A stretch of 64,000 nucleotides of DNA from a virus (lineage: Duplodnaviria > Caudoviricetes), in IMG/VR virus record IMGVR_UViG_3300010355_000898, positions 128,001-192,000 of that record; one strand, given 5' to 3'. Positions 23,229 to 29,328 of the stretch are shown in pieces; position 1 is the first letter of the stretch, and each line of letters opens with the position of its first letter. The position numbers and the translations under genes are program-made. A model generated the notes under the pieces. The model was not told the DNA's origin and did not search any database. It worked only from the letters and a program-made list of their open reading frames with translations.

Positions 23229-23303
23229 CGATCACAGGTGTTATCTGGCAGCATACCCGGCTCTTAACCGGTGAGGTCGTGGGTTCAAATCCCCGGTGAT
23301 CGA
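23229..23303 (+). tRNA. tRNA-Lys(CTT)
   Basis: cgatcac/gtgatcg; ct CTT aa. Confidence 0.88.
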
Positions 23304-23312
23304 CTGAGATTT

Positions 23313-23386
23313 TGGAAATTAGCACAATGGTAGTGCGGCTCGCTCTGAACGAGTTGATGGGAGTTCGATCCTCTCATTTCCAACCA
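23313..23386 (+). tRNA. tRNA-Gln(CTG)
   Basis: ct CTG aa; CCA. Confidence 0.92.
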
Positions 23387-23413
23387 AGACAATGAGCAGT
23401 GACAGTGCTCTGA

Positions 23414-23425
23414 GTTCTTTGACAA
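23414..23425 (+). promoter_or_regulatory. boxA-like antitermination site
   Basis: GTTCTTTGACAA. Confidence 0.6.
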
Positions 23426-23440
23426 TTGAATAGCAATATT

Positions 23441-23514
23441 GCGTCTATGGTATAATAGCATTATGCAGGCCTTCCAAGCCTTGCGATCTGGGTGCAACTC
23501 CCAGTGGACGCTCC
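23441..23514 (+). tRNA. tRNA-Gly(TCC)
   Basis: ct TCC aa; U73. Confidence 0.9.
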
Positions 23515-23562
23515 GGGGTTTGTTTATGGTGCTTCCCAACAAAAAAATGTGAACCGTACAAT

Positions 23563-23638
23563 GCCCATTTAGCTCAGCAGGTAGAGCAGTAGTTTTGTAA
23601 ACTACCGGTCACTGGTTCAATTCCGGTAATGGGCTCCA
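23563..23638 (+). tRNA. tRNA-Thr(TGT)
   Basis: tt TGT aa; CCA. Confidence 0.95.
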
Positions 23639-23639
23639 C

Positions 23640-23725
23640 AGCGGGGATGTAGTGAAAAGGTGTCACATTAGGCTCATAACCTAATCCTAACGGCGCGAAA
23701 GGTTCAATTCCTTCCCCCGCTACCA
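23640..23725 (+). tRNA. tRNA-Met(CAT), atypical long form
   Basis: agcgggg/ccccgct; ct CAT aa; 12-nt variable region. Confidence 0.8.
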
Positions 23726-23728
23726 AAT

Positions 23729-23803
23729 GGTCGCATCGTCTATTGGCTAGGACATCTGCTTCTCAAGCAGGCAAGCTCAGTTCAACTCTGAGTGCGATCA
23801 CCA
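23729..23803 (+). tRNA. tRNA-Glu(CTC)
   Basis: tt CTC aa; CCA. Confidence 0.92.
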
Positions 23804-23804
23804 T

Positions 23805-23891
23805 GGAGTCAGATCATCTGGAAGGTACCAGAAGCGGTCTGTAAAACCGTTGTCTCTGTGCGGAGTGGTTCAAATCCACCTGGCTCCACCA
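23805..23891 (+). tRNA. tRNA-Tyr(GTA)
   Basis: ct GTA aa; long variable arm; CCA. Confidence 0.85.
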
Positions 23892-23949
23892 AATAAACCT
23901 GCAGTGTTCTGGGGATATCTGCCCATCAAAGAATTGTGTAGGTTTGAAT

Positions 23950-24021
23950 GGGGATGTGTGAAAGATCACTGATGAGTTTTGCATACTTGTCATGCGGGAG
24001 CGTTACCCGACATCTCCACCA
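23950..24021 (+). tRNA. tRNA-Ala(TGC), atypical
   Basis: G3:U70; tt TGC at; T-loop AGCGTTA; CCA. Confidence 0.75.
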
Positions 24022-24037
24022 ATTCATTATTGAATAT

Positions 24038-24121
24038 TGCCAAGTACCCGAGTGGAAGCAGGGGCCCGGCTGTTAACCGGATTGCGAAAGCACGCCGTGG
24101 GTTCGAATCCTACCTTGGCAG
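24038..24121 (+). tRNA. tRNA-Asn(GTT) with long variable arm
   Basis: ct GTT aa; V-arm tgc-gaaa-gca; G73. Confidence 0.88.
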
Positions 24122-24169
24122 CCCAGGAGTTTTTTCAGGTTCTCCAAGAATAAAAAAACCTGAAGGTAC

Positions 24170-24249
24170 CCACTCGTGGTGGAATAGCAGACACGCTGGT
24201 CTCAGAAGCCAGTACCCTGAGTGTGAGAGTGCAAGTCTCTCCGAGTGGA
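24170..24249 (+). tRNA. tRNA-Leu(CAG)
   Basis: ct CAG aa; A73. Confidence 0.88.
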
Positions 24250-24251
24250 CT

Positions 24252-24325
24252 GTGGTCATAGTGTAAAGGTTTGCACGCGAGGCTGTGATCCTCTCAGTAC
24301 GGGTTCGAATCCCGTTGATCACCCA
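24252..24325 (+). tRNA. tRNA-His(GTG)
   Basis: ct GTG at; C73. Confidence 0.92.
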
Positions 24326-24332
24326 AATCTAT

Positions 24333-24407
24333 TGGACGTTGGCGCAGAGGTAGCGCAGTGCTCCTACAAAGCGAAGGTCGTCAGTTCGATCCTGACACGT
24401 CCAACCA
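24333..24407 (+). tRNA. tRNA-Val(TAC)
   Basis: loop cc TAC aa (C33); CCA. Confidence 0.82.
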
Positions 24408-24409
24408 AT

Positions 24410-24483
24410 CTCCCAATGGCGCAGTTGGATAGCGCATACGTTTCCTAAACGTGAGGTCGCAGGTTCGAATCCTGCTTGGGAGG
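24410..24483 (+). tRNA. tRNA-Arg(CCT)
   Basis: tt CCT aa. Confidence 0.95.
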
Positions 24484-24498
24484 CCGAAGAAAGTTTAT

Positions 24499-24572
24499 GC
24501 CCCCGTGGCGCAATGGATTAGCGCGAGTGGCTTCTATCCACAAGGTTGTAGGTTCGAATCCTACCGGGGGTA
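24499..24572 (+). tRNA. tRNA-Arg(TCT)
   Basis: ct TCT at. Confidence 0.93.
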
Positions 24573-24691
24573 CTGTGCCAGTTCAACTGGATGATTTCTG
24601 AGGGTAGCTAATGTCAGAAAGAGAATGAAAAATAACGCTGCCAAAACGGGCAACAGCGTTAATGTATGAAAATATGTTAGACTGAAGATAT

Positions 24692-24763
24692 CTGGATGTA
24701 AGTCAGCGGCAGACATCCTCGCCTGGAACGAGGGAGCCGGGGGTTCGAGTCCCTCCATCCAGA
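24692..24763 (+). tRNA. tRNA-Pro(TGG)
   Basis: C1:G72; loop cc TGG aa (C33). Confidence 0.85.
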
Positions 24764-24768
24764 CAAAT

Positions 24769-24842
24769 ATCCCGGTAGCACAACTGGACTGTGTATTCAG
24801 CTACGAACTGAAAGGTTGGGGGTTCGAATCCCTCTCGGGATG
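24769..24842 (+). tRNA. tRNA-Arg(ACG)
   Basis: ct ACG aa. Confidence 0.92.
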
Positions 24843-24885
24843 CCGAGAGTTTGAATGTTCTTCCAAAAATAAAAACATTCACAAT

Positions 24886-24970
24886 CCACACATGATGGAA
24901 AGGCAGACATGCAAGTTTGAGAGACTTGTGCCCTTGTGGTGTGCAGGTTCAAGTCCTGCTGTGTGGACCA
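24886..24970 (+). tRNA. tRNA-Leu(GAG)
   Basis: tt GAG ag; V-arm; CCA. Confidence 0.92.
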
Positions 24971-24983
24971 ATACTTAACAGTT

Positions 24984-25100
24984 ATGTATGGTGCATTTCC
25001 AAGCTTAATTGTTAATATTGCTGTTGGTTGTTTTGCAGTTTTCAGTCTGCTCATTGTTTTGGGAGCATATGCTCTCTACAAGAGTGGAAAAAAGAAGTGA
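24984..25100 (+). CDS. 38-aa single-TM peptide MYGAFPSLIVNIAVGCFAVFSLLIVLGAYALYKSGKKK
   Basis: ATACTTA-N6-ATG motif; hydrophobic core with basic tail. Confidence 0.65.
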   Translation: MYGAFPSLIVNIAVGCFAVFSLLIVLGAYALYKSGKKK

Positions 25101-25133
25101 ACATTATCCAATAGAAGATTAGAATGGAAACAT

Positions 25134-25207
25134 CGGAGTGTACCTCAATTTGGTAGAGGGCCTGCTTTGGGAGCAGAACGTTGTAGGTTCAAATCCTATC
25201 ACTCCGA
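25134..25207 (+). tRNA. tRNA-Pro(TGG)
   Basis: cggagtg/cactccg; tt TGG ga. Confidence 0.93.
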
Positions 25208-25216
25208 CAAATTAAT

Positions 25217-25291
25217 GCTCTCGTACTCATCTGGTGAGGAGGCCGGCTTGTCACGCCGAGGAGGAGGGTTCGATCCCCTTCGAGAGCGCCA
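25217..25291 (+). tRNA. tRNA-Asp(GTC)
   Basis: tt GTC ac; G73; CCA. Confidence 0.9.
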
Positions 25292-25292
25292 A

Positions 25293-25448
25293 GCCGGTCA
25301 TTTGGGTTCGAGTCCCAATGCAATTTAGTCAGGCCAGTTGAAAGTTTCATGATATAGTTGGACACTCATCATGAAATGAGTAACTGAGAGTGGTCTACCT
25401 CAATAGTCCAACATTGAGTTTGTATCATCTAATTGGCAGGATACCGGC
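25293..25448 (+). ncRNA. circularly permuted tRNA-like RNA 1 with structured insert
   Basis: T-arm precedes D-arm; ends pair gccggt/accggc. Confidence 0.7.
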
Positions 25449-25457
25449 AGTTATTTT

Positions 25458-25536
25458 GGGTCTAATGATGGTTCTGTATGCAATTGAACCCACAAATGGA
25501 AATTGTATACGTTGGGTTCAATTCCCAATAGATCCA
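25458..25536 (+). ncRNA. mini tmRNA-TLD-like RNA
   Basis: acceptor G3:U70 and A73; no D-stem; 10-bp helix; canonical T-arm. Confidence 0.6.
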
Positions 25537-25545
25537 CTAAATAAT

Positions 25546-25621
25546 GGGTTGTTAGCTGATATGGTTATAGCATGCGCCTGAAGAGCGCGGGAATTCAGTT
25601 CGATTCTGAAACAACTCACCA
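25546..25621 (+). tRNA. tRNA-Phe(GAA)
   Basis: ct GAA ga; CCA. Confidence 0.92.
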
Positions 25622-25660
25622 GAGGTTGAGTGGTGTGCCTCTAAGAAAGCACCACACCAA

Positions 25661-25737
25661 CGAAGTCGACAGGCAAGGTCGCCGAAGAATCCTGATAAGA
25701 TTCTGTATGCTGGGTTCGATTCCCAGGACTTCGACCA
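25661..25737 (+). tRNA. tRNA-Ile(GAT)
   Basis: ct GAT aa; CCA. Confidence 0.85.
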
Positions 25738-25837
25738 ATGTGCATGATATCGCGGAGATATCATATTCAGAGTGTTAAAGATCTGAATACCGAATATCAA
25801 ACCTGATCAGTTTATACGGTGCCACTTTAACAGCTAT

Positions 25838-25911
25838 GTCTCATTAGTGTAATGGTAGCACGATGGTTTCCAAGTCCATCTGTCAGGGTTCAAATCCTTG
25901 GTGAGATGCCA
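25838..25911 (+). tRNA. tRNA-Trp(CCA)
   Basis: tt CCA ag; G73; U31:U39 mismatch. Confidence 0.85.
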
Positions 25912-26021
25912 AGTAGACGGTTGTAGCGTTCAACGATTAGTGTCTACTCTGAGTGTAGGTGTGACAGCAGGCCCGCTCAGCGCAAGTAACGCAATGAATT
26001 GTGAAACACTGTTGTCACCAT

Positions 26022-26096
26022 GCGTCAATAACTCAATGGTAGAGTAGCGGGCTTTTAACCCGTTAGTTGAGAGTTCAAGTCTCTCTTGACGCACCA
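26022..26096 (+). tRNA. tRNA-Lys(TTT)
   Basis: ct TTT aa; CCA. Confidence 0.95.
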
Positions 26097-26098
26097 AT

Positions 26099-26173
26099 AT
26101 GCCTGTGGTGAAATGGGATCATATCCGGTTTTTAACCGGTAAGTTGGGGGTTCAAATCCCTTCAGGCGTACCA
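26099..26173 (+). tRNA. tRNA-Lys(TTT)
   Basis: tt TTT aa; CCA. Confidence 0.87.
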
Positions 26174-26175
26174 TC

Positions 26176-26250
26176 GGGAGTGTAGGACCGGTCGACCTAG
26201 GATGTCTTATAAACATCCGTAGCTCAGTTCAACTCTGAGCACTCCCACCA
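26176..26250 (+). tRNA. tRNA-Ile(TAT)
   Basis: gatgt-ct TAT aa-acatc; A73; CCA. Confidence 0.82.
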
Positions 26251-26255
26251 ACAAT

Positions 26256-26339
26256 GCTCACATGGCGGAATGGCAGACGCGGCTGACTCAAAATCAGCTA
26301 CCGAAAGGTGTGGGGGTTCAAGTCCCTCTGTGAGCACCA
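26256..26339 (+). tRNA. tRNA-Leu(CAA)
   Basis: ct CAA aa; V-arm; CCA. Confidence 0.95.
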
Positions 26340-26340
26340 T

Positions 26341-26415
26341 GTTCCACAGCTCTGCGATGAGTAATTGCGTCTGCAAAACGTTGGTGGGTCAGTTCAATTC
26401 TGACGTGGAACTCCA
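26341..26415 (+). tRNA. tRNA-Cys(GCA)
   Basis: ct GCA aa; U73; CCA; atypical D-arm. Confidence 0.8.
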
Positions 26416-26420
26416 AATTT

Positions 26421-26496
26421 GCCCATGTAGTTCAATTGGCAGAACACATGTCTCGTAAACATGAAGTTAACAGTTCAATTCTGTTCTTGGGCTCCA
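26421..26496 (+). tRNA. tRNA-Thr(CGT)
   Basis: ct CGT aa; CCA. Confidence 0.92.
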
Positions 26497-26507
26497 ACAA
26501 AATTAAT

Positions 26508-26583
26508 GGCTCTGTCATCTAACGGCTTAGGATGTTAGACTTTCTATCTGATCATACGGGTTCAAATCCCGTCAGAGTCACCA
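26508..26583 (+). tRNA. tRNA-Glu(TTC)
   Basis: ct TTC ta; CCA. Confidence 0.92.
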
Positions 26584-26584
26584 T

Positions 26585-26656
26585 CGTTACTGCACAAGGT
26601 GTGACCAGAATTTCATAAGTTCTTGGGTGAGGGTTCGATTCCCTCAGTAACGACCA
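26585..26656 (+). tRNA. tRNA-CAT (Met or Ile2), reduced D-arm
   Basis: cgttact/agtaacg; tt CAT aa; CCA. Confidence 0.75.
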
Positions 26657-26964
26657 ACACAATCTGTTCAAGTGACTGAAGTCAAGCCCCTTACTCGGGG
26701 GTGAAGTACCAATGCCAGAAACTGATTGGGTCCAAGGATAGTGAAACAGAACGCAATGTAGTCTCGTTGGACGATCAGGCAGTTTCTTAATCGTCAGCCA
26801 GATGTAATGGTCAAGATAACAATGACTCAGAGTTGCAACCATTTGTGGTGAAAATCCATCATATCAGTAACAGTCAGCGAGGCTAGCTGATTGGATATGT
26901 GACAGAAATGCAGTTTCATGAAAGTAGGTGATAGGGTTGAGATCCTATCCGGGACAGAATGTGT
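26657..26964 (+). ncRNA. ~310-nt structured ncRNA, family unassigned
   Basis: 5'/3' ends pair; many hairpins; 8-bp loop-loop complementarity. Confidence 0.7.
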
Positions 26965-26972
26965 TGATTTAT

Positions 26973-27056
26973 GCTCACGTGGTTGGAATAGCAGACACGG
27001 CAGTCTCAAAAATTGCTGGGAGAAATCTCGTGGGGGTGCAAGTCCCTCCGTGAGCA
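26973..27056 (+). tRNA. tRNA-Leu(CAA)
   Basis: ct CAA aa; V-arm. Confidence 0.9.
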
Positions 27057-27179
27057 CTGATGAAAATGTGTGTGACAGCTAATGAGAACACTGCTCGTTA
27101 AGTTGATGACCGTCAATGGAGAAATCATATCAGTTGGGTTCATAACATCTAATCATACACCAGTAGTCACCGGTTCGAT

Positions 27180-27251
27180 TCTCCGGTAGCTCAGCGGGAG
27201 AGCGGGAAGCTGTTAACTTCTTGGTCGTAGGTTCGATCCCTACCTGGAGAG
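27180..27251 (+). tRNA. tRNA-Asn(GTT)
   Basis: ct GTT aa; G73. Confidence 0.94.
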
Positions 27252-27264
27252 CAATTTTTATCAT

Positions 27265-27352
27265 GGAAGGTCAACCCAATTGGCGATGGGAGCTGTTTTG
27301 AACACAGTCGAGTGTAAGAGCCTTGGGGGTTCAACTCCCTCACCTTCCGCCA
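27265..27352 (+). tRNA. tRNA-Ser(TGA)
   Basis: tt TGA ac; V-arm; GCCA. Confidence 0.92.
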
Positions 27353-27442
27353 AGTTCTGAGTGCACTCAGAGGTGTTCCCAATTGACACCAAGTGGAAAC
27401 TGTATTCCACGCAATTGAATATTCCTGGGTCACCCTGGGGAT

Positions 27443-27514
27443 GCGATCGAGGCCGACTGGTGAGGCGATTGCTTGCCAAGCAATCTTATGTGGGTTCAAT
27501 TCCCATCGATCGCT
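27443..27514 (+). tRNA. tRNA-Gly(GCC)
   Basis: tt GCC aa; U73. Confidence 0.9.
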
Positions 27515-27518
27515 CTAA

Positions 27519-27705
27519 GCTGGAGACATTGGTTCGAATCCAATCAAGATAAAGAGTATCAAATACTGTGAAGTTACCATCACTTGAATGTACATAGCGC
27601 TTAAAGTAATTTTAGAAGAAAATGTTCTAGACAAATATTCTAAAATGATGACATTCTAAATGGTTGAGAAATTTATTTTGTAGCTCAATTGGCAAGAGCA
27701 ACAGC
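27519..27705 (+). ncRNA. circularly permuted tRNA-like RNA 2 with structured insert
   Basis: T-arm attgg-ttcgaat-ccaat precedes D-arm tagctc-aattggcaa-gagc; acceptor caagata/tattttg. Confidence 0.75.
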
Positions 27706-27713
27706 AGATTTTT

Positions 27714-27807
27714 GGAAGACAAATCAGTCAGGGACTGAACCTGTTTGCTAAACAGTGGGCTACCCATGAAGAATGGGAGTGGGTTTCGAGTACTCTGTCT
27801 TCCGCCA
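27714..27807 (+). tRNA. tRNA-Ser(GCT)
   Basis: tt GCT aa; long V-arm; GCCA. Confidence 0.87.
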
Positions 27808-27808
27808 T

Positions 27809-27896
27809 AGAGAGTAAATTAACGAAGCGTTAAGCCTGTCTCGAAAACAGTGCGATGGTTGATGAAATCATTGGGGATCAGGACCTCTGCTCTCTG
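27809..27896 (+). tRNA. tRNA-Ser(CGA)
   Basis: ct CGA aa; V-arm; atypical T-loop. Confidence 0.78.
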
Positions 27897-27901
27897 CAAA
27901 T

Positions 27902-27990
27902 GGAAGGTAAACCGGTTAGGATACCGGGCATGTTTGGAAAACATTGAGAAGGTTAAAAACTTTGTGTTTCGAGTACACTGCTTTCCGCCA
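27902..27990 (+). tRNA. tRNA-Ser(GGA)
   Basis: tt GGA aa; V-arm; GCCA. Confidence 0.87.
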
Positions 27991-27992
27991 AT

Positions 27993-28067
27993 GTCCCAAT
28001 AGTATAGTGGCAATTATGCATCCTTGGTAAGGATGAAACCTGGGTTCGATTCCCAGTTGGGGCTCCA
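27993..28067 (+). tRNA. tRNA-Thr(GGT)
   Basis: tt GGT aa; CCA. Confidence 0.93.
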
Positions 28068-28071
28068 TAAT

Positions 28072-28143
28072 GCGCACAGAGTGTGCTGGGTACACATCAC
28101 CATGACGGGGTGAACAGGTTGAGTTCAATTCTCAATGTGCGCA
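28072..28143 (+). tRNA. tRNA-Val(GAC)
   Basis: tcacc-at GAC gg-ggtga. Confidence 0.85.
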
Positions 28144-28172
28144 CAGATTGTTTCAACACAATATTTAACGTT

Positions 28173-28784
28173 ATGTCTATTGATACAAAACGTTGGGGTA
28201 AAATTGCCGGGATTCTCAAAGAGAATATGTGGGATGCAACAACTGATGCATTGCAACGTGATTGCAGGTGTGAAAGTTGTGGTAAAATCATAACACAGGA
28301 TGATATTGATGAGTATGAGGCAGAAGGTGGAGAAGGTTGTCCTGCTGTTTGCACAGATTGTGCTGATGAAGAGGCAAGATTGCCATCATCGGGTGCAAAA
28401 CATATGTGGGAAAGTTTTTCTGTCAGCATTATGCAGGAAGCACCATACATTTATAAACCATTCAAGAGCACTGCTCCTGCTCCAATGTGTCAAGCTTGTG
28501 GAAATGAATTGACATATAGGGATAGAGTTGAGTATGAGAATGAGGGTGGAGAAGGTTGGCCAGAACTCTGCAGTGATTGCACAGATTACAAAAATCCTAA
28601 ATGGGCTCAAACAAAAAAGTCAATTGAAGAGGTTGACGAACCGGTTGTTGGAGCAGATCCCAATTGCAAAAATTGTGCAGGAACTGGGTGGGAATATGAA
28701 ACCGGTCAGGATGGTGAACGTGAAAAGGTCAATTGTGACTGTATTCACAAACGTAAATCAGATAAATTGGCAATGAAAAAATAA
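28173..28784 (+). CDS. multi-zinc-ribbon protein
   Basis: two CxxC..EYExEGGEG.P..CxxC repeats plus a DnaJ-like CKNCAGTG; ATATTTA-N5-ATG. Confidence 0.8.
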   Translation: MSIDTKRWGKIAGILKENMWDATTDALQRDCRCESCGKIITQDDIDEYEAEGGEGCPAVCTDCADEEARLPSSGAKHMWESFSVSIMQEAPYIYKPFKSTAPAPMCQACGNELTYRDRVEYENEGGEGWPELCSDCTDYKNPKWAQTKKSIEEVDEPVVGADPNCKNCAGTGWEYETGQDGEREKVNCDCIHKRKSDKLAMKK

Positions 28785-28837
28785 CAAATTCTTGGTGCAC
28801 AATCTGACAGCGTACAGTAATATCAGATTGTGAACAT

Positions 28838-28913
28838 GGCTCTGTCATCTAATGGTTTAGGATCACAGACTTTCGATCTGTTTATGCGCGTTCGAATCGC
28901 GTCAGAGTCACCA
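28838..28913 (+). tRNA. tRNA-Glu(TTC)
   Basis: ct TTC ga; CCA; own promoter at 28795. Confidence 0.93.
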
Positions 28914-28916
28914 TAT

Positions 28917-28990
28917 TGGGATATAGCTCAAAGGCAGAGCAACCGGCTTTGAACCGGTGTATGTTGGTTCGATTCCAGCTATCCCAACCA
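28917..28990 (+). tRNA. tRNA-Gln(TTG)
   Basis: ct TTG aa; CCA. Confidence 0.94.
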
Positions 28991-28996
28991 ATCAAA

Positions 28997-29328
28997 GGGG
29001 CGAACAGGTTTCGACGGGTTTGCTCATTCACAGTAAGCATGCAGTGTGAACAACTCTTTGTTCAGAATATTTGCAAACACAAATACACAAGATTTCGCAC
29101 TTGCTGCGTAAATCGCTGTCTGTGCACCATGAGATCTGATGTACAGATGGTTCAATTTTGATCTCAAACTGTTGTCTGATGATTTGGGTCAACAGTGTTC
29201 AGAAATCTGAGATGATAATCGTCGCATAAAAAGTTATCAACCTGCGCACAGGTTATTGCGCTGAAGCATGTGATAGAAAACTGTGAATGTAAAATTCGGA
29301 CATGGGTTCAATTCCCATACGCTCCACA
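28997..29328 (+). ncRNA. ssrA: tmRNA; tag ANTNTQDFALAA at 29073-29111
   Basis: GGGGCGAACAGGTTTCGAC 5' end; G3:U70; T-arm; ALAA-stop tag. Confidence 0.95.

What the first reader, a model, noticed from the sequence alone, without database searches (positions are those of the whole stretch)
25293..25448. Permuted tRNA-like RNA 1: 3' half first, kissing-loop cargo in the acceptor stem
Seen, in order: anticodon-stem 3' strand gccgg, T-arm ttggg-ttcgagt-cccaa, acceptor strand tgcaa, ~95-nt insert, acceptor strand ttgta, D-arm tcatct-aattggc-aggat (same type as this phage's tRNA-Glu), a-ccggc. The RNA ends replace the anticodon loop. The insert folds (aggcca/tggtct, cagtt/aactg, tttcatgat/atcatgaaa, ctcaat/attgag) and its two loops are complementary over 7 nt (gttggac 25357-63; gtccaac 25406-12). 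Established: YrlA Y RNAs share the T-acceptor-D topology but carry a long Ro-binding stem, and algal/archaeal permuted tRNAs mature through circles. Inference: an undescribed phage tRNA-scaffold RNA acting as a decoy, a circular RNA or a cargo-release device.
Basis: partly seen in the sequence, partly recalled or inferred. Interest (0 to 1): 0.9.

Follow-up and report, generated by a model that had tools for sequence, protein, structure and literature searches.

The report
Rearranged tRNA look-alike in phage
A jumbo phage carries, among its tRNA genes, a small RNA gene built like a tRNA with its two halves swapped, no anticodon and a 92-base extra domain; it is a variant of the tRNA mimics known from bacterial Y RNAs, and its function is unknown.

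Summary
At 25293-25448 a tRNA 3' half (anticodon-stem strand, 4-nt variable loop, canonical T arm, acceptor strand) precedes a 92-nt insert and the matching 5' half (acceptor strand, U8, D arm with G18G19, anticodon-stem strand). None of 3000 shuffles reproduces it.

A second copy with different stems lies at 27519-27705. A third lies in a distant relative, again just after tRNA-Asp. Nine unrelated phage contigs carry the same layout with short acceptor caps, against 0.2 expected by chance. This scan had already noted such RNAs on other phage DNA.

It is not a decoding tRNA and not random debris. It has the topology of the tRNA-like domain of YrlA Y RNAs, but fails YrlA membership:
- no Rfam hit;
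- no GNCGAA motif;
- only a 5-bp end stem;
- no Ro60-type gene in the 269-kb record, which is 74% complete.

The phage does encode RtcB and an Rnl2-type ligase, but I found no evidence for circles.

The kissing-loop complementarity is real in the sequence. It cannot be tested, because the only close relative is identical there.

Best reading: a non-decoding tRNA mimic matured by the tRNA-processing enzymes. It is a new variant of a known kind, and its function is unresolved.

The parts
25217..25291 (+). tRNA-Asp(GTC) with encoded CCA. It is the upstream neighbour, and the permuted RNA starts 2 nt after its last base.
   Evidence: ARAGORN; Rfam tRNA 44.9 bits
25293..25297 (+). gccgg: the 3' strand of the anticodon-stem equivalent. 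It is the 5' part of the end stem.
   Evidence: Sequence. It pairs 5/5 with 25444-25448. This stem is present in the MFE fold.
25302..25318 (+). T arm ttggg-ttcgagt-cccaa (G53, T54, T55, C56, A58, C61 all present), preceded by the 4-nt variable loop tcat (25298-25301).
   Evidence: Sequence. Present in the MFE fold. Orphan T arm 10 nt after tRNA-Asp.
25319..25325 (+). Acceptor 3' strand tgcaatt. No CCA follows it (t-agt instead).
   Evidence: Sequence. 6 of 7 positions pair with 25418-25424.
25326..25417 (+). 92-nt insert that takes the place of the acceptor cap. It holds two hairpins (25345-25376 and 25399-25418) whose loops carry gttggac and gtccaac.
   Evidence: Sequence. Insert fold -22.0 kcal/mol, z -2.1. 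No Rfam family. No similarity to the inserts of RNA 2 or of the G009 RNA.
25418..25424 (+). Acceptor 5' strand gtttgta.
   Evidence: Sequence; pairing table.
25425..25443 (+). U8-C9, then D arm atct-aattggca-ggat (A14, A15, G18, G19, A21), then A26.
   Evidence: Sequence. ARAGORN drawing of the rejoined halves.
25444..25448 (+). ccggc: the 5' strand of the anticodon-stem equivalent. It is the 3' part of the end stem.
   Evidence: Sequence.
25449..25457 (+). Tail agttatttt, running up to the 5' end of the next tRNA-like RNA. That end is the presumed RNase P site that sets the 3' end of RNA 1.
   Evidence: Sequence. The RNase P role is an inference.
25458..25539 (+). Downstream neighbour: a miniature tmRNA-like acceptor/T-arm RNA.
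   Evidence: Rfam tmRNA 29.8 bits, below the gathering score of 47.
27519..27705 (+). RNA 2, the paralogous permuted tRNA-like RNA: gctgg | agac | attgg-ttcgaat-ccaat | caagata(aa) | 122-nt insert | (tt)tattttg | ta | gctc-aattggcaa-gagc | a | acagc. It starts 4 nt after the discriminator base of tRNA-Gly.
   Evidence: Sequence. The MFE fold itself is the permuted cloverleaf. 0 of 3000 shuffles. 8 pairs changed on both sides relative to RNA 1.

Best explanation
RNA 1 is a genuine gene for a small, non-decoding, circularly permuted tRNA mimic. Read 5' to 3' it has an end-stem strand, a T arm, an acceptor helix, a D arm and the other end-stem strand. The RNA's two ends sit where the anticodon loop would be, and the acceptor end is closed by a 92-nt structured expansion instead of being free.

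Shown: the architecture, its significance, a second copy in this phage, an analogous copy after tRNA-Asp in a distant relative, and a recurrent class of short-capped versions in unrelated phages.

Inferred: it is co-transcribed with the tRNA array. Its 5' end is made when the 3' end of tRNA-Asp is matured, and its 3' end when RNase P cuts the next tRNA-like RNA. All the nucleotides needed for the tRNA elbow are present (U8-A14, A15-U48, G18G19 with T55C56, T54-A58), so it should fold into an L shape.

Inferred function: it is a stable tRNA-shaped RNA that engages tRNA-handling proteins (RNase P, modification enzymes, RNA repair or Ro-type quality control, or host tRNA-targeting defence nucleases) without being chargeable or decodable. 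That is the same working principle as the tRNA-like module of YrlA Y RNAs. RNase P may also cut at the base of its 7-bp acceptor stem, as in M. smegmatis YrlA, which would free the insert.

My odds: real structured tRNA-mimic RNA about 0.8. Acts as a protein-binding mimic or decoy rather than as a carrier for its insert about 0.4. Opened by RNase P at the acceptor about 0.3.
For: - Sequence anatomy.
- 0 of 3000 shuffles meet the strict descriptor for RNA 1, for RNA 2 and for the G009 RNA.
- ARAGORN accepts the rejoined halves as tRNAs.
- Between RNA 1 and RNA 2, 95% of cells are paired, 8 pairs changed on both sides, and slid controls give 27-48%.
- RNA 1 is 0/156 different from a relative whose array spacers differ by 2-4%.
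- The G009 RNA (L101:4746-4926) lies 2 nt after tRNA-Asp(GTC), has a 117-nt insert and entirely different stems.
- Of 83 sites with two T loops 24-32 nt apart in IMG/VR, 9 have a full permuted cloverleaf with a 4-24-nt cap, against 0.2 in decoys. Most begin 0-4 nt after a tRNA.
- The Rfam YrlA model weakly recognises two of these (24-25 bits).
- YrlA features, and RNase P cleavage plus CCA addition in M. smegmatis YrlA, come from PMC4201824.
Against:
- The element is absent from most relatives of the clade, including a 91%-complete genome.
- RNA 2 differs from its close relative at 10 of 187 positions, no less than spacers do, including a 1-nt bulge in the acceptor helix.
- The acceptor of RNA 1 has a U.U and two G.U pairs.
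- The nearest-neighbour MFE of RNA 1 prefers another pairing of the insert with the 5' half.
- No partner protein was identified.
Confidence: 0.6

Rival explanations
1. It is a Y RNA in the strict sense: a partner of a Ro60-type ring protein. That protein would be host-encoded, or encoded in the missing 26% of the phage genome. The tRNA-like body would tether Ro60 to tRNA-handling or RNA-repair enzymes.
For: - The topology is the same as the YrlA tRNA-like domain.
- Rfam RF02553 gives 24-30-bit hits in three of the class loci; two of them (24.0 and 24.9 bits, L173 and L178) fall on the permuted RNAs themselves.
- 2 of 6 complete class-bearing phages encode a TROVE or DUF2828 protein.
- The phage encodes RtcB, which shares an operon with rsr and yrlA in Salmonella (abstract of PMC7790460).
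Against: - No TROVE, DUF2828 or VWA_2 match, and no match to a phage Ro60-like protein, in the 269.5-kb record.
- No RF02553 hit on RNA 1 or RNA 2, even at E<=10 or E<=1.
- No GNCGAAN0-1G motif, and only a 5-bp end stem.
- Four complete phages with the class have no Ro60-type gene. In G035 the gene is 52 kb from the RNA.
Confidence: 0.17
2. It is debris: remains of two tandem tRNA genes (or of array recombination) that lost their outer halves. It would have no function, and its helices survive only because the event is recent.
For: - The arrays turn over quickly. Several tRNAs are swapped or missing between 95%-identical genomes.
- Relatives have tandem isoacceptor pairs with spacers of about 120 nt, which mimic a permuted tRNA (L088, two tRNA-Ala).
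- The element is sporadic in the clade.
- RNA 2 changes as fast as spacers.
Against: - Four independent deletion end points would all have to fall at the base of the anticodon stem, in two copies.
- All four helices and the canonical T and D loops are intact in RNA 1, RNA 2 and the G009 RNA.
- The halves are not close copies of any tRNA in the array.
- The same layout recurs 45-fold above chance in unrelated phages.
- RNA 1 is unchanged where about 4 changes are expected.
Confidence: 0.12
3. It is a permuted gene for a working tRNA or for a circular RNA. The 5'-P and 3'-OH ends held together by the end stem would be sealed by the phage Rnl2-type ligase or by RtcB. RNase P and a 3' nuclease would then open the acceptor and discard the insert, as in algal and archaeal permuted tRNAs.
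For: - The 3'-half-first order, and the halves rejoin into a tRNA shape.
- RtcB and an Rnl2-type ligase are encoded.
- The ends lie at a 5-bp stem.
Against: - There are no anticodon-loop nucleotides. Joining the available leader and tail gives loops of 10-12 nt without U33 or R37 in RNA 1 and RNA 2, and only about 5 nt in the class member L146.
- No CCA is encoded and the acceptor is weak.
- RtcB is absent from 9 of 10 other records that carry such RNAs.
- Several class members cap the acceptor with a tetraloop (TGCG in L164, GAAA in L179), which argues for a closed acceptor.
Confidence: 0.06
4. The tRNA-like halves are only a processing and stabilising scaffold. The functional part is the 92-nt insert (a regulatory or structural RNA), cut out by RNase P and a 3' nuclease.
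For: - The insert is flanked exactly by the acceptor strands, where RNase P and 3' trimming act.
- M. smegmatis YrlA is cut there.
- The insert folds somewhat better than shuffles (z -2.1) and has a 7-nt loop-loop complementarity.
Against: - Class members with 4-nt caps carry no cargo.
- The inserts of RNA 1, RNA 2 and the G009 RNA are unrelated, and that of RNA 2 is not unusually stable (z -1.0).
- An RNA placed simply between two tRNAs would be released just as well.
Confidence: 0.1

Closest known systems
YrlA (Y RNA-like A; Rfam RF02553) of bacteria and mycobacteriophages (Chen et al. 2014, PMC4201824)
   Same: Circular permutation of a tRNA body: T stem-loop, then an acceptor-like stem-loop, then a D stem-loop, with the RNA ends at the place of the anticodon arm. 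The tRNA tertiary-interaction nucleotides are kept. There is a 7-bp acceptor helix, as in the M. smegmatis form that RNase P cleaves.
   Different: No GNCGAAN0-1G motif. The end stem has only 5 bp. No Ro60 gene lies within 4 kb or anywhere in the record. There is no RF02553 hit. It sits inside a tRNA array directly after a tRNA. A 92-nt structured expansion replaces the small acceptor loop.
Circularly permuted tRNA genes of Cyanidioschyzon merolae and some archaea (own knowledge; mentioned in PMC4238349)
   Same: The 3' half is encoded upstream of the 5' half, with an intervening sequence between the acceptor strands.
   Different: Those genes keep a complete anticodon loop and a bulge-helix-bulge junction, and they mature through a circle into decoding tRNAs. 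Here no anticodon loop exists, and no splicing endonuclease is expected in bacteria.
Phage T4 stable RNAs rnaC and rnaD (species 1 and 2 RNAs) in the tRNA cluster
   Same: Small stable RNAs of unknown function encoded in the phage tRNA cluster on the tRNA strand. rnaD starts 1 nt after tRNA-Arg. rnaC has a canonical T arm.
   Different: They are not permuted. The T arm of rnaC lies at the 3' end with 5'/3' acceptor-like pairing, and no D arm is evident. They resemble the mini tmRNA-like RNA at 25458-25539 more than RNA 1.
Two-piece (permuted) tmRNA (Rfam RF04321)
   Same: A permuted gene order, with an intervening segment between the acceptor strands that is removed during maturation.
   Different: tmRNA lacks a D stem and has a tag reading frame and pseudoknots. 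RNA 1 gets no hit from RF04321 or RF00023 beyond its T loop.
Similar RNAs appear in earlier notes of this scan. Unpublished as far as I could search.
   Same: Same order of arms, same short end stem, same position 0-4 nt after a tRNA, and no anticodon loop.
   Different: Their acceptor helix is closed by 4-24 nt. RNA 1, RNA 2 and the G009 RNA carry 92-122-nt expansions there.

Membership tests
YrlA (RF02553) | T, acceptor-like and D stem-loops in that order, closed by the pairing of the 5' and 3' ends | tested here: met
   Sequence and folds.
YrlA (RF02553) | Score at or above the Rfam gathering threshold (69 bits) | tested here: not met
   No RF02553 hit on RNA 1 at E<=10, nor on RNA 1 or RNA 2 at E<=1.
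YrlA (RF02553) | GNCGAAN0-1G motif near the 5' end (the proposed Ro60 contact) | tested here: not met
   Read directly from the sequence. The 5' end goes straight from AAGCYGG into the variable loop and T arm. Motif as defined in PMC4201824.
YrlA (RF02553) | Encoded within about 4 kb of a Ro60 (TROVE) gene on the same strand | tested here: not met
   No TROVE, DUF2828 or VWA_2 match, and no match to a phage Ro60-like protein, in the 269.5-kb record, which is 74% complete.
tRNA (RF00005) | Standard cloverleaf order with an anticodon loop | tested here: not met
   No RF00005 or ARAGORN call at 25293-25448. It is called a tRNA only after artificial rejoining with an added loop.
Permuted tRNA genes (C. 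merolae / archaeal type) | 3' half upstream of the 5' half | tested here: met
Permuted tRNA genes (C. merolae / archaeal type) | Anticodon-loop nucleotides are present, so that circularisation yields a decoding tRNA | tested here: not met
   The leader plus tail give 10-12 nt without U33 or R37.
Permuted tRNA genes (C. merolae / archaeal type) | Circular RNA intermediate | not testable with these tools
tmRNA / permuted tmRNA (RF00023, RF04321) | Acceptor/T-arm domain without a D stem, plus a tag reading frame | tested here: not met
   Only a 9.6-bit T-loop match to RF00023. A 4-bp D stem is present.
ACAGCAA-handle RNAs beside DUF2828 Ro60-like genes (the scan's own earlier notes; unpublished) | A 7-bp closing stem followed by ACAGCAA after its 5' strand, with a DUF2828 or TROVE gene nearby | tested here: not met
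   The end stem has 5 bp. Nothing like the box follows the 5' strand. RNA 2 has ACAGCAG, but as its 3' strand. No DUF2828 match.

The most novel reading that the evidence does not exclude
The phage makes 'pre-broken' tRNA bodies. The ends of RNA 1 are a 5'-phosphate left by tRNA-Asp 3' maturation and a 3'-OH left by RNase P, held together by a 5-bp stem exactly where an anticodon nuclease would have cut. These ends would be sealed by the phage's own Rnl2-type ligase or RtcB into a covalently closed tRNA-shaped circle. RNase P and a 3' nuclease then might or might not open the acceptor and release the 92-nt kissing-loop domain. That would be the first permuted-tRNA or circular-RNA maturation pathway in a bacterial virus.
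Probability: 0.08. Interest if true: 0.85.

Novelty: new variant of a known kind. Interest (0 to 1): 0.55.

Why it matters
tRNA arrays of large phages are usually read only as codon-supply or counter-defence kits. This locus shows that they also hold tRNA-shaped RNAs that cannot decode.

The working principle, a permuted tRNA body, is known from bacterial Y RNAs. Here it occurs without the Ro60 module, directly fused behind a tRNA gene, and with a large expansion at the acceptor end.

The same layout recurs in unrelated phages, most of them without any Ro60-type gene. The tRNA-like body therefore probably has a function of its own in tRNA processing, repair or the tRNA-centred arms race with the host. 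If a partner were found, it would also bear on the still open question of what the tRNA-like domain of YrlA is for.

Tried and rejected
- Close homologues in public phage records: none. blastn and megablast against INPHARED, and exact 31-mer and 20-mer scans of IMG/VR.
- Relatives through flanking proteins. The 257-aa upstream protein has none. The metallophosphoesterase has only a 95% twin and then cellular proteins at 35%. The in-array Cys-rich protein led to the only close relatives.
- Relatives through RtcB: one unrelated 48-kb phage without tRNAs.
- Covariance model R1, built from RNA 1 and RNA 2: no true homologue in 29 related phage records. Its weak hits were junctions of tandem tRNAs, for example two tRNA-Ala genes in L088 and two tRNA-Glu genes in L091. 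The same false-positive type is noted in PMC4201824.
- Long-insert descriptor hits in the IMG/VR sample are at chance level (4 seen, 4.15 expected), so L130, L145, L155 and L158 were discarded. L130 and L158 overlap real tRNAs.
- Fifteen more arrays, fetched through a conserved tRNA-Asp T-arm/acceptor pattern, held no further permuted element.
- T4 rnaC and rnaD were tested as possible permuted tRNA mimics. They are not.
- The ACAGCAG of RNA 2 was considered as the 'ACAGCAA handle' of earlier notes. I rejected this because it lies on the wrong strand of the stem and no DUF2828 gene is present.
- Known small ribozymes or other Rfam families in the inserts: none at E<=1.
- Own promoter or terminator for RNA 1: nothing convincing. 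The nearest promoter-like site lies upstream of tRNA-Pro at 25098-25125.
- One paper search failed to finish (the call after 80).

Full report
**Setting.** The window is bases 128001-192000 of a 269.5-kb IMG/VR virus record judged 74% complete. It is a jumbo phage with T4-type baseplate genes. The baseplate wedge protein is only about 32% identical to those of cultured phages. On the plus strand, 23229-29327 hold 36 ARAGORN tRNAs and a tmRNA. RNA 1 fills most of the 254-nt gap between tRNA-Asp(GTC) (25217-25291) and tRNA-Phe (25546).

**The observation.**
- gccgg, 25293-25297
- a 4-nt variable loop
- T arm ttggg-ttcgagt-cccaa, 25302-25318
- acceptor strand tgcaatt, 25319-25325
- a 92-nt insert
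- acceptor strand gtttgta, 25418-25424
- U8-C9
- D arm atct-aattggca-ggat
- A26
- ccggc, 25444-25448

The nucleotides that build the tRNA elbow are all in place: U8, A14, A15 with U48, G18G19, T54, T55, C56, A58, G53-C61. The insert hairpins tttcatgat/atcatgaaa and ctcaat/attgag are perfect, and their loops carry the exact 7-nt complements gttggac and gtccaac. The helices aggcca/tggtct and cagtt/aactg share two bases, so they cannot both be complete.

When the two halves are rejoined in normal order with an artificial loop, ARAGORN calls a tRNA. A strict descriptor is met in none of 3000 dinucleotide shuffles of the downstream sequence. The unconstrained MFE fold (-46.5 kcal/mol, z -2.5) keeps the end stem and the T arm. 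However, it uses the loop complementarity as a nested helix that also consumes the D arm. The tRNA-like fold is 8.7 kcal/mol weaker by nearest-neighbour rules, which ignore tertiary and kissing contacts. So the tRNA-like core is well supported by comparison, while the fold of the insert stays open.

**A second copy.** At 27519-27705, 4 nt after the discriminator base of tRNA-Gly, the same architecture recurs with different stems and a 122-nt insert. There the MFE fold itself is the permuted cloverleaf. On the alignment of RNA 1, RNA 2 and the relative's RNA 2:
- 95% of cells pair;
- 8 of 21 pairs changed on both sides;
- slid controls give 27-48%.

The end stem and its flanks are the most similar part of the two copies (AAGCCGG...CCGGCAG and AAGCTGG...ACAGCAG).

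**Relatives.** No public phage record or IMG/VR contig is close. Through the Cys-rich protein inside the array I reached ENA metagenome scaffolds that are about 95% identical. Between these genomes:
- RNA 1 is identical over 156 nt, as is the whole block 25134-25737. Array spacers differ by 2-4%, so about 4 changes would be expected.
- RNA 2 differs at 10 of 187 positions. The changes lie in the T loop, the D loop (GG kept), the insert apex and the tail. In the acceptor, one G.U becomes A-U, with a 1-nt bulge added.

This is weak evidence for constraint on RNA 1 and none for RNA 2.

The baseplate wedge protein showed a large clade of phages at 50-58% identity. A covariance model of RNA 1 and RNA 2 found no homologue in 29 of their records; its weak hits were junctions of tandem tRNAs. 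A descriptor scan of the arrays of six relatives found one more element. In G009 (L101:4746-4926), 2 nt after a tRNA-Asp(GTC), there is a permuted tRNA-like RNA with a 117-nt insert, and all four helices differ in sequence. It also has 0 of 3000 shuffles. The other arrays, including those of a 91%-complete genome and 15 further loci, have none. The three inserts are unrelated. The element is therefore sporadic in the clade, like many of the tRNAs themselves.

**A wider class.** The signature of these elements is a T arm only 10-12 nt after a complete tRNA. Among the 83 sites returned, 9 have a complete permuted cloverleaf with a 4-24-nt acceptor cap, against 0.2 in shuffled decoys. Most start 0-4 nt after a tRNA, and RNAfold recovers the cloverleaf unaided. 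Hits with long inserts in that sample are at chance level and were discarded.

Rfam's YrlA model gives 24-25 bits on two of these RNAs (gathering score 69) and nothing on RNA 1 or RNA 2. Earlier notes of this scan describe similar RNAs in many other phages. I used those notes as leads only.

**Partners.** YrlA is defined by a GNCGAAN0-1G motif, T/AS/D stem-loops and a Ro60 gene within 4 kb. M. smegmatis YrlA is cut by RNase P in its 7-bp acceptor stem and receives CCA (PMC4201824). Here there is no such motif, and the end stem has only 5 bp.

The record has no TROVE, DUF2828 or VWA_2 match and no match to a phage Ro60-like protein. Among six complete phages that carry the class:
- one has a TROVE gene, 52 kb from the RNA;
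- one has a DUF2828 gene;
- four have neither.

The phage does encode RtcB and an Rnl2-type RNA ligase. But RtcB is found in only one of ten other records with such RNAs.

**Interpretation.** The RNA cannot decode. No anticodon loop exists, and joining the leader and the tail would give loops of 10-12 nt without U33 or R37. It cannot be charged as encoded, because the acceptor is closed and there is no CCA.

Random debris is unlikely, for three reasons: the break points are identical in two copies, all helices and loops are intact, and the layout recurs elsewhere.

The best-supported reading is a non-decoding tRNA mimic of YrlA-type topology. It would be matured from the array transcript by the enzymes that process its neighbours, and it would act through its tRNA-shaped body. 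The 92-nt domain would be a lineage-specific expansion of the acceptor cap. The following remain untested:
- whether RNase P opens the acceptor and frees the insert;
- whether the ends are ligated;
- which protein it binds;
- whether the kissing loop forms.

**Verdict.** This is a new variant of a known kind: a YrlA-like tRNA mimic without the Ro60 module, placed in the array and carrying a large acceptor insert. Interest is moderate. The architecture is striking and the class is uncatalogued in Rfam and in the papers I could search. Against that, the principle is known, the scan has met it before, and the function is unresolved.

Noticed in passing
window 25458-25539: A miniature tmRNA-like RNA with a 7-bp acceptor (G3.U70), a T arm, a 10-bp helix in place of the anticodon arm, and no tag frame. 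Rfam tmRNA gives 29.8 bits against a gathering score of 47. It is 100% identical in the 95% relative.
   Followed up: partly
window 23804-23888: A long-arm tRNA-like sequence that ARAGORN does not call. Rfam tRNA-Sec gives 41.9 bits against a gathering score of 47.
   Followed up: no
window 26388-26404 (gap 26340-26420): An orphan T arm gtcag-ttcaatt-ctgac, 48 nt after tRNA-Leu and 16 nt before tRNA-Thr. It is probably an unusual tRNA or tRNA-like RNA missed by ARAGORN.
   Followed up: no
window 25912-26021: The spacer RNA holds gtgacagcag (25961-25970), which can pair over 10 bp with ctgttgtcac further on in the same spacer. It differs at only 1 of 110 positions in the close relative.
   Followed up: no
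window 23563-24573, 27180-27252, 28838-28913: Between 95%-identical genomes, whole tRNA genes are swapped (Thr-TGT, Cys, Arg-CCT, Arg-TCT, one Glu-TTC) or absent (Asn at 27180), while their neighbours are identical. This is cassette-like turnover of the array.
   Followed up: partly
window 28173-28784: A Cys-rich repeat protein inside the tRNA array. It is only 58% identical to its counterpart in the otherwise 95%-identical relative and has no Pfam or PHROG family.
   Followed up: partly
G000:C1:77645-78142 and 83620-84756 (outside the window): An Rnl2-type RNA ligase (PF09414, 50.5 bits) and RtcB (395 bits) lie about 5.5 kb apart. The phage carries two RNA-sealing enzymes of different end chemistry.
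   Followed up: partly
L146:5448-5650 (IMGVR_UViG_3300005821_000002): A 203-nt match to bacterial RNase P RNA class A across the whole model (58.9 bits, gathering score 100), inside the tRNA array of a complete 96-kb phage that also has a permuted tRNA-like RNA and a tmRNA.
   Followed up: no
L088:1459-1728 (IMGVR_UViG_3300032722_000006): Two tRNA-Ala genes separated by 121 nt imitate a permuted tRNA in covariance-model and descriptor searches. The spacer holds a further orphan T arm, gaggg-ttcgact-ccctc.
   Followed up: partly
L226:5054-5172 (phage T4, NC_000866 71053-71171): T4 rnaD starts 1 nt after tRNA-Arg and rnaC follows 6 nt later. This is the same tight packing of non-tRNA stable RNAs behind a tRNA as seen here.
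   Followed up: partly
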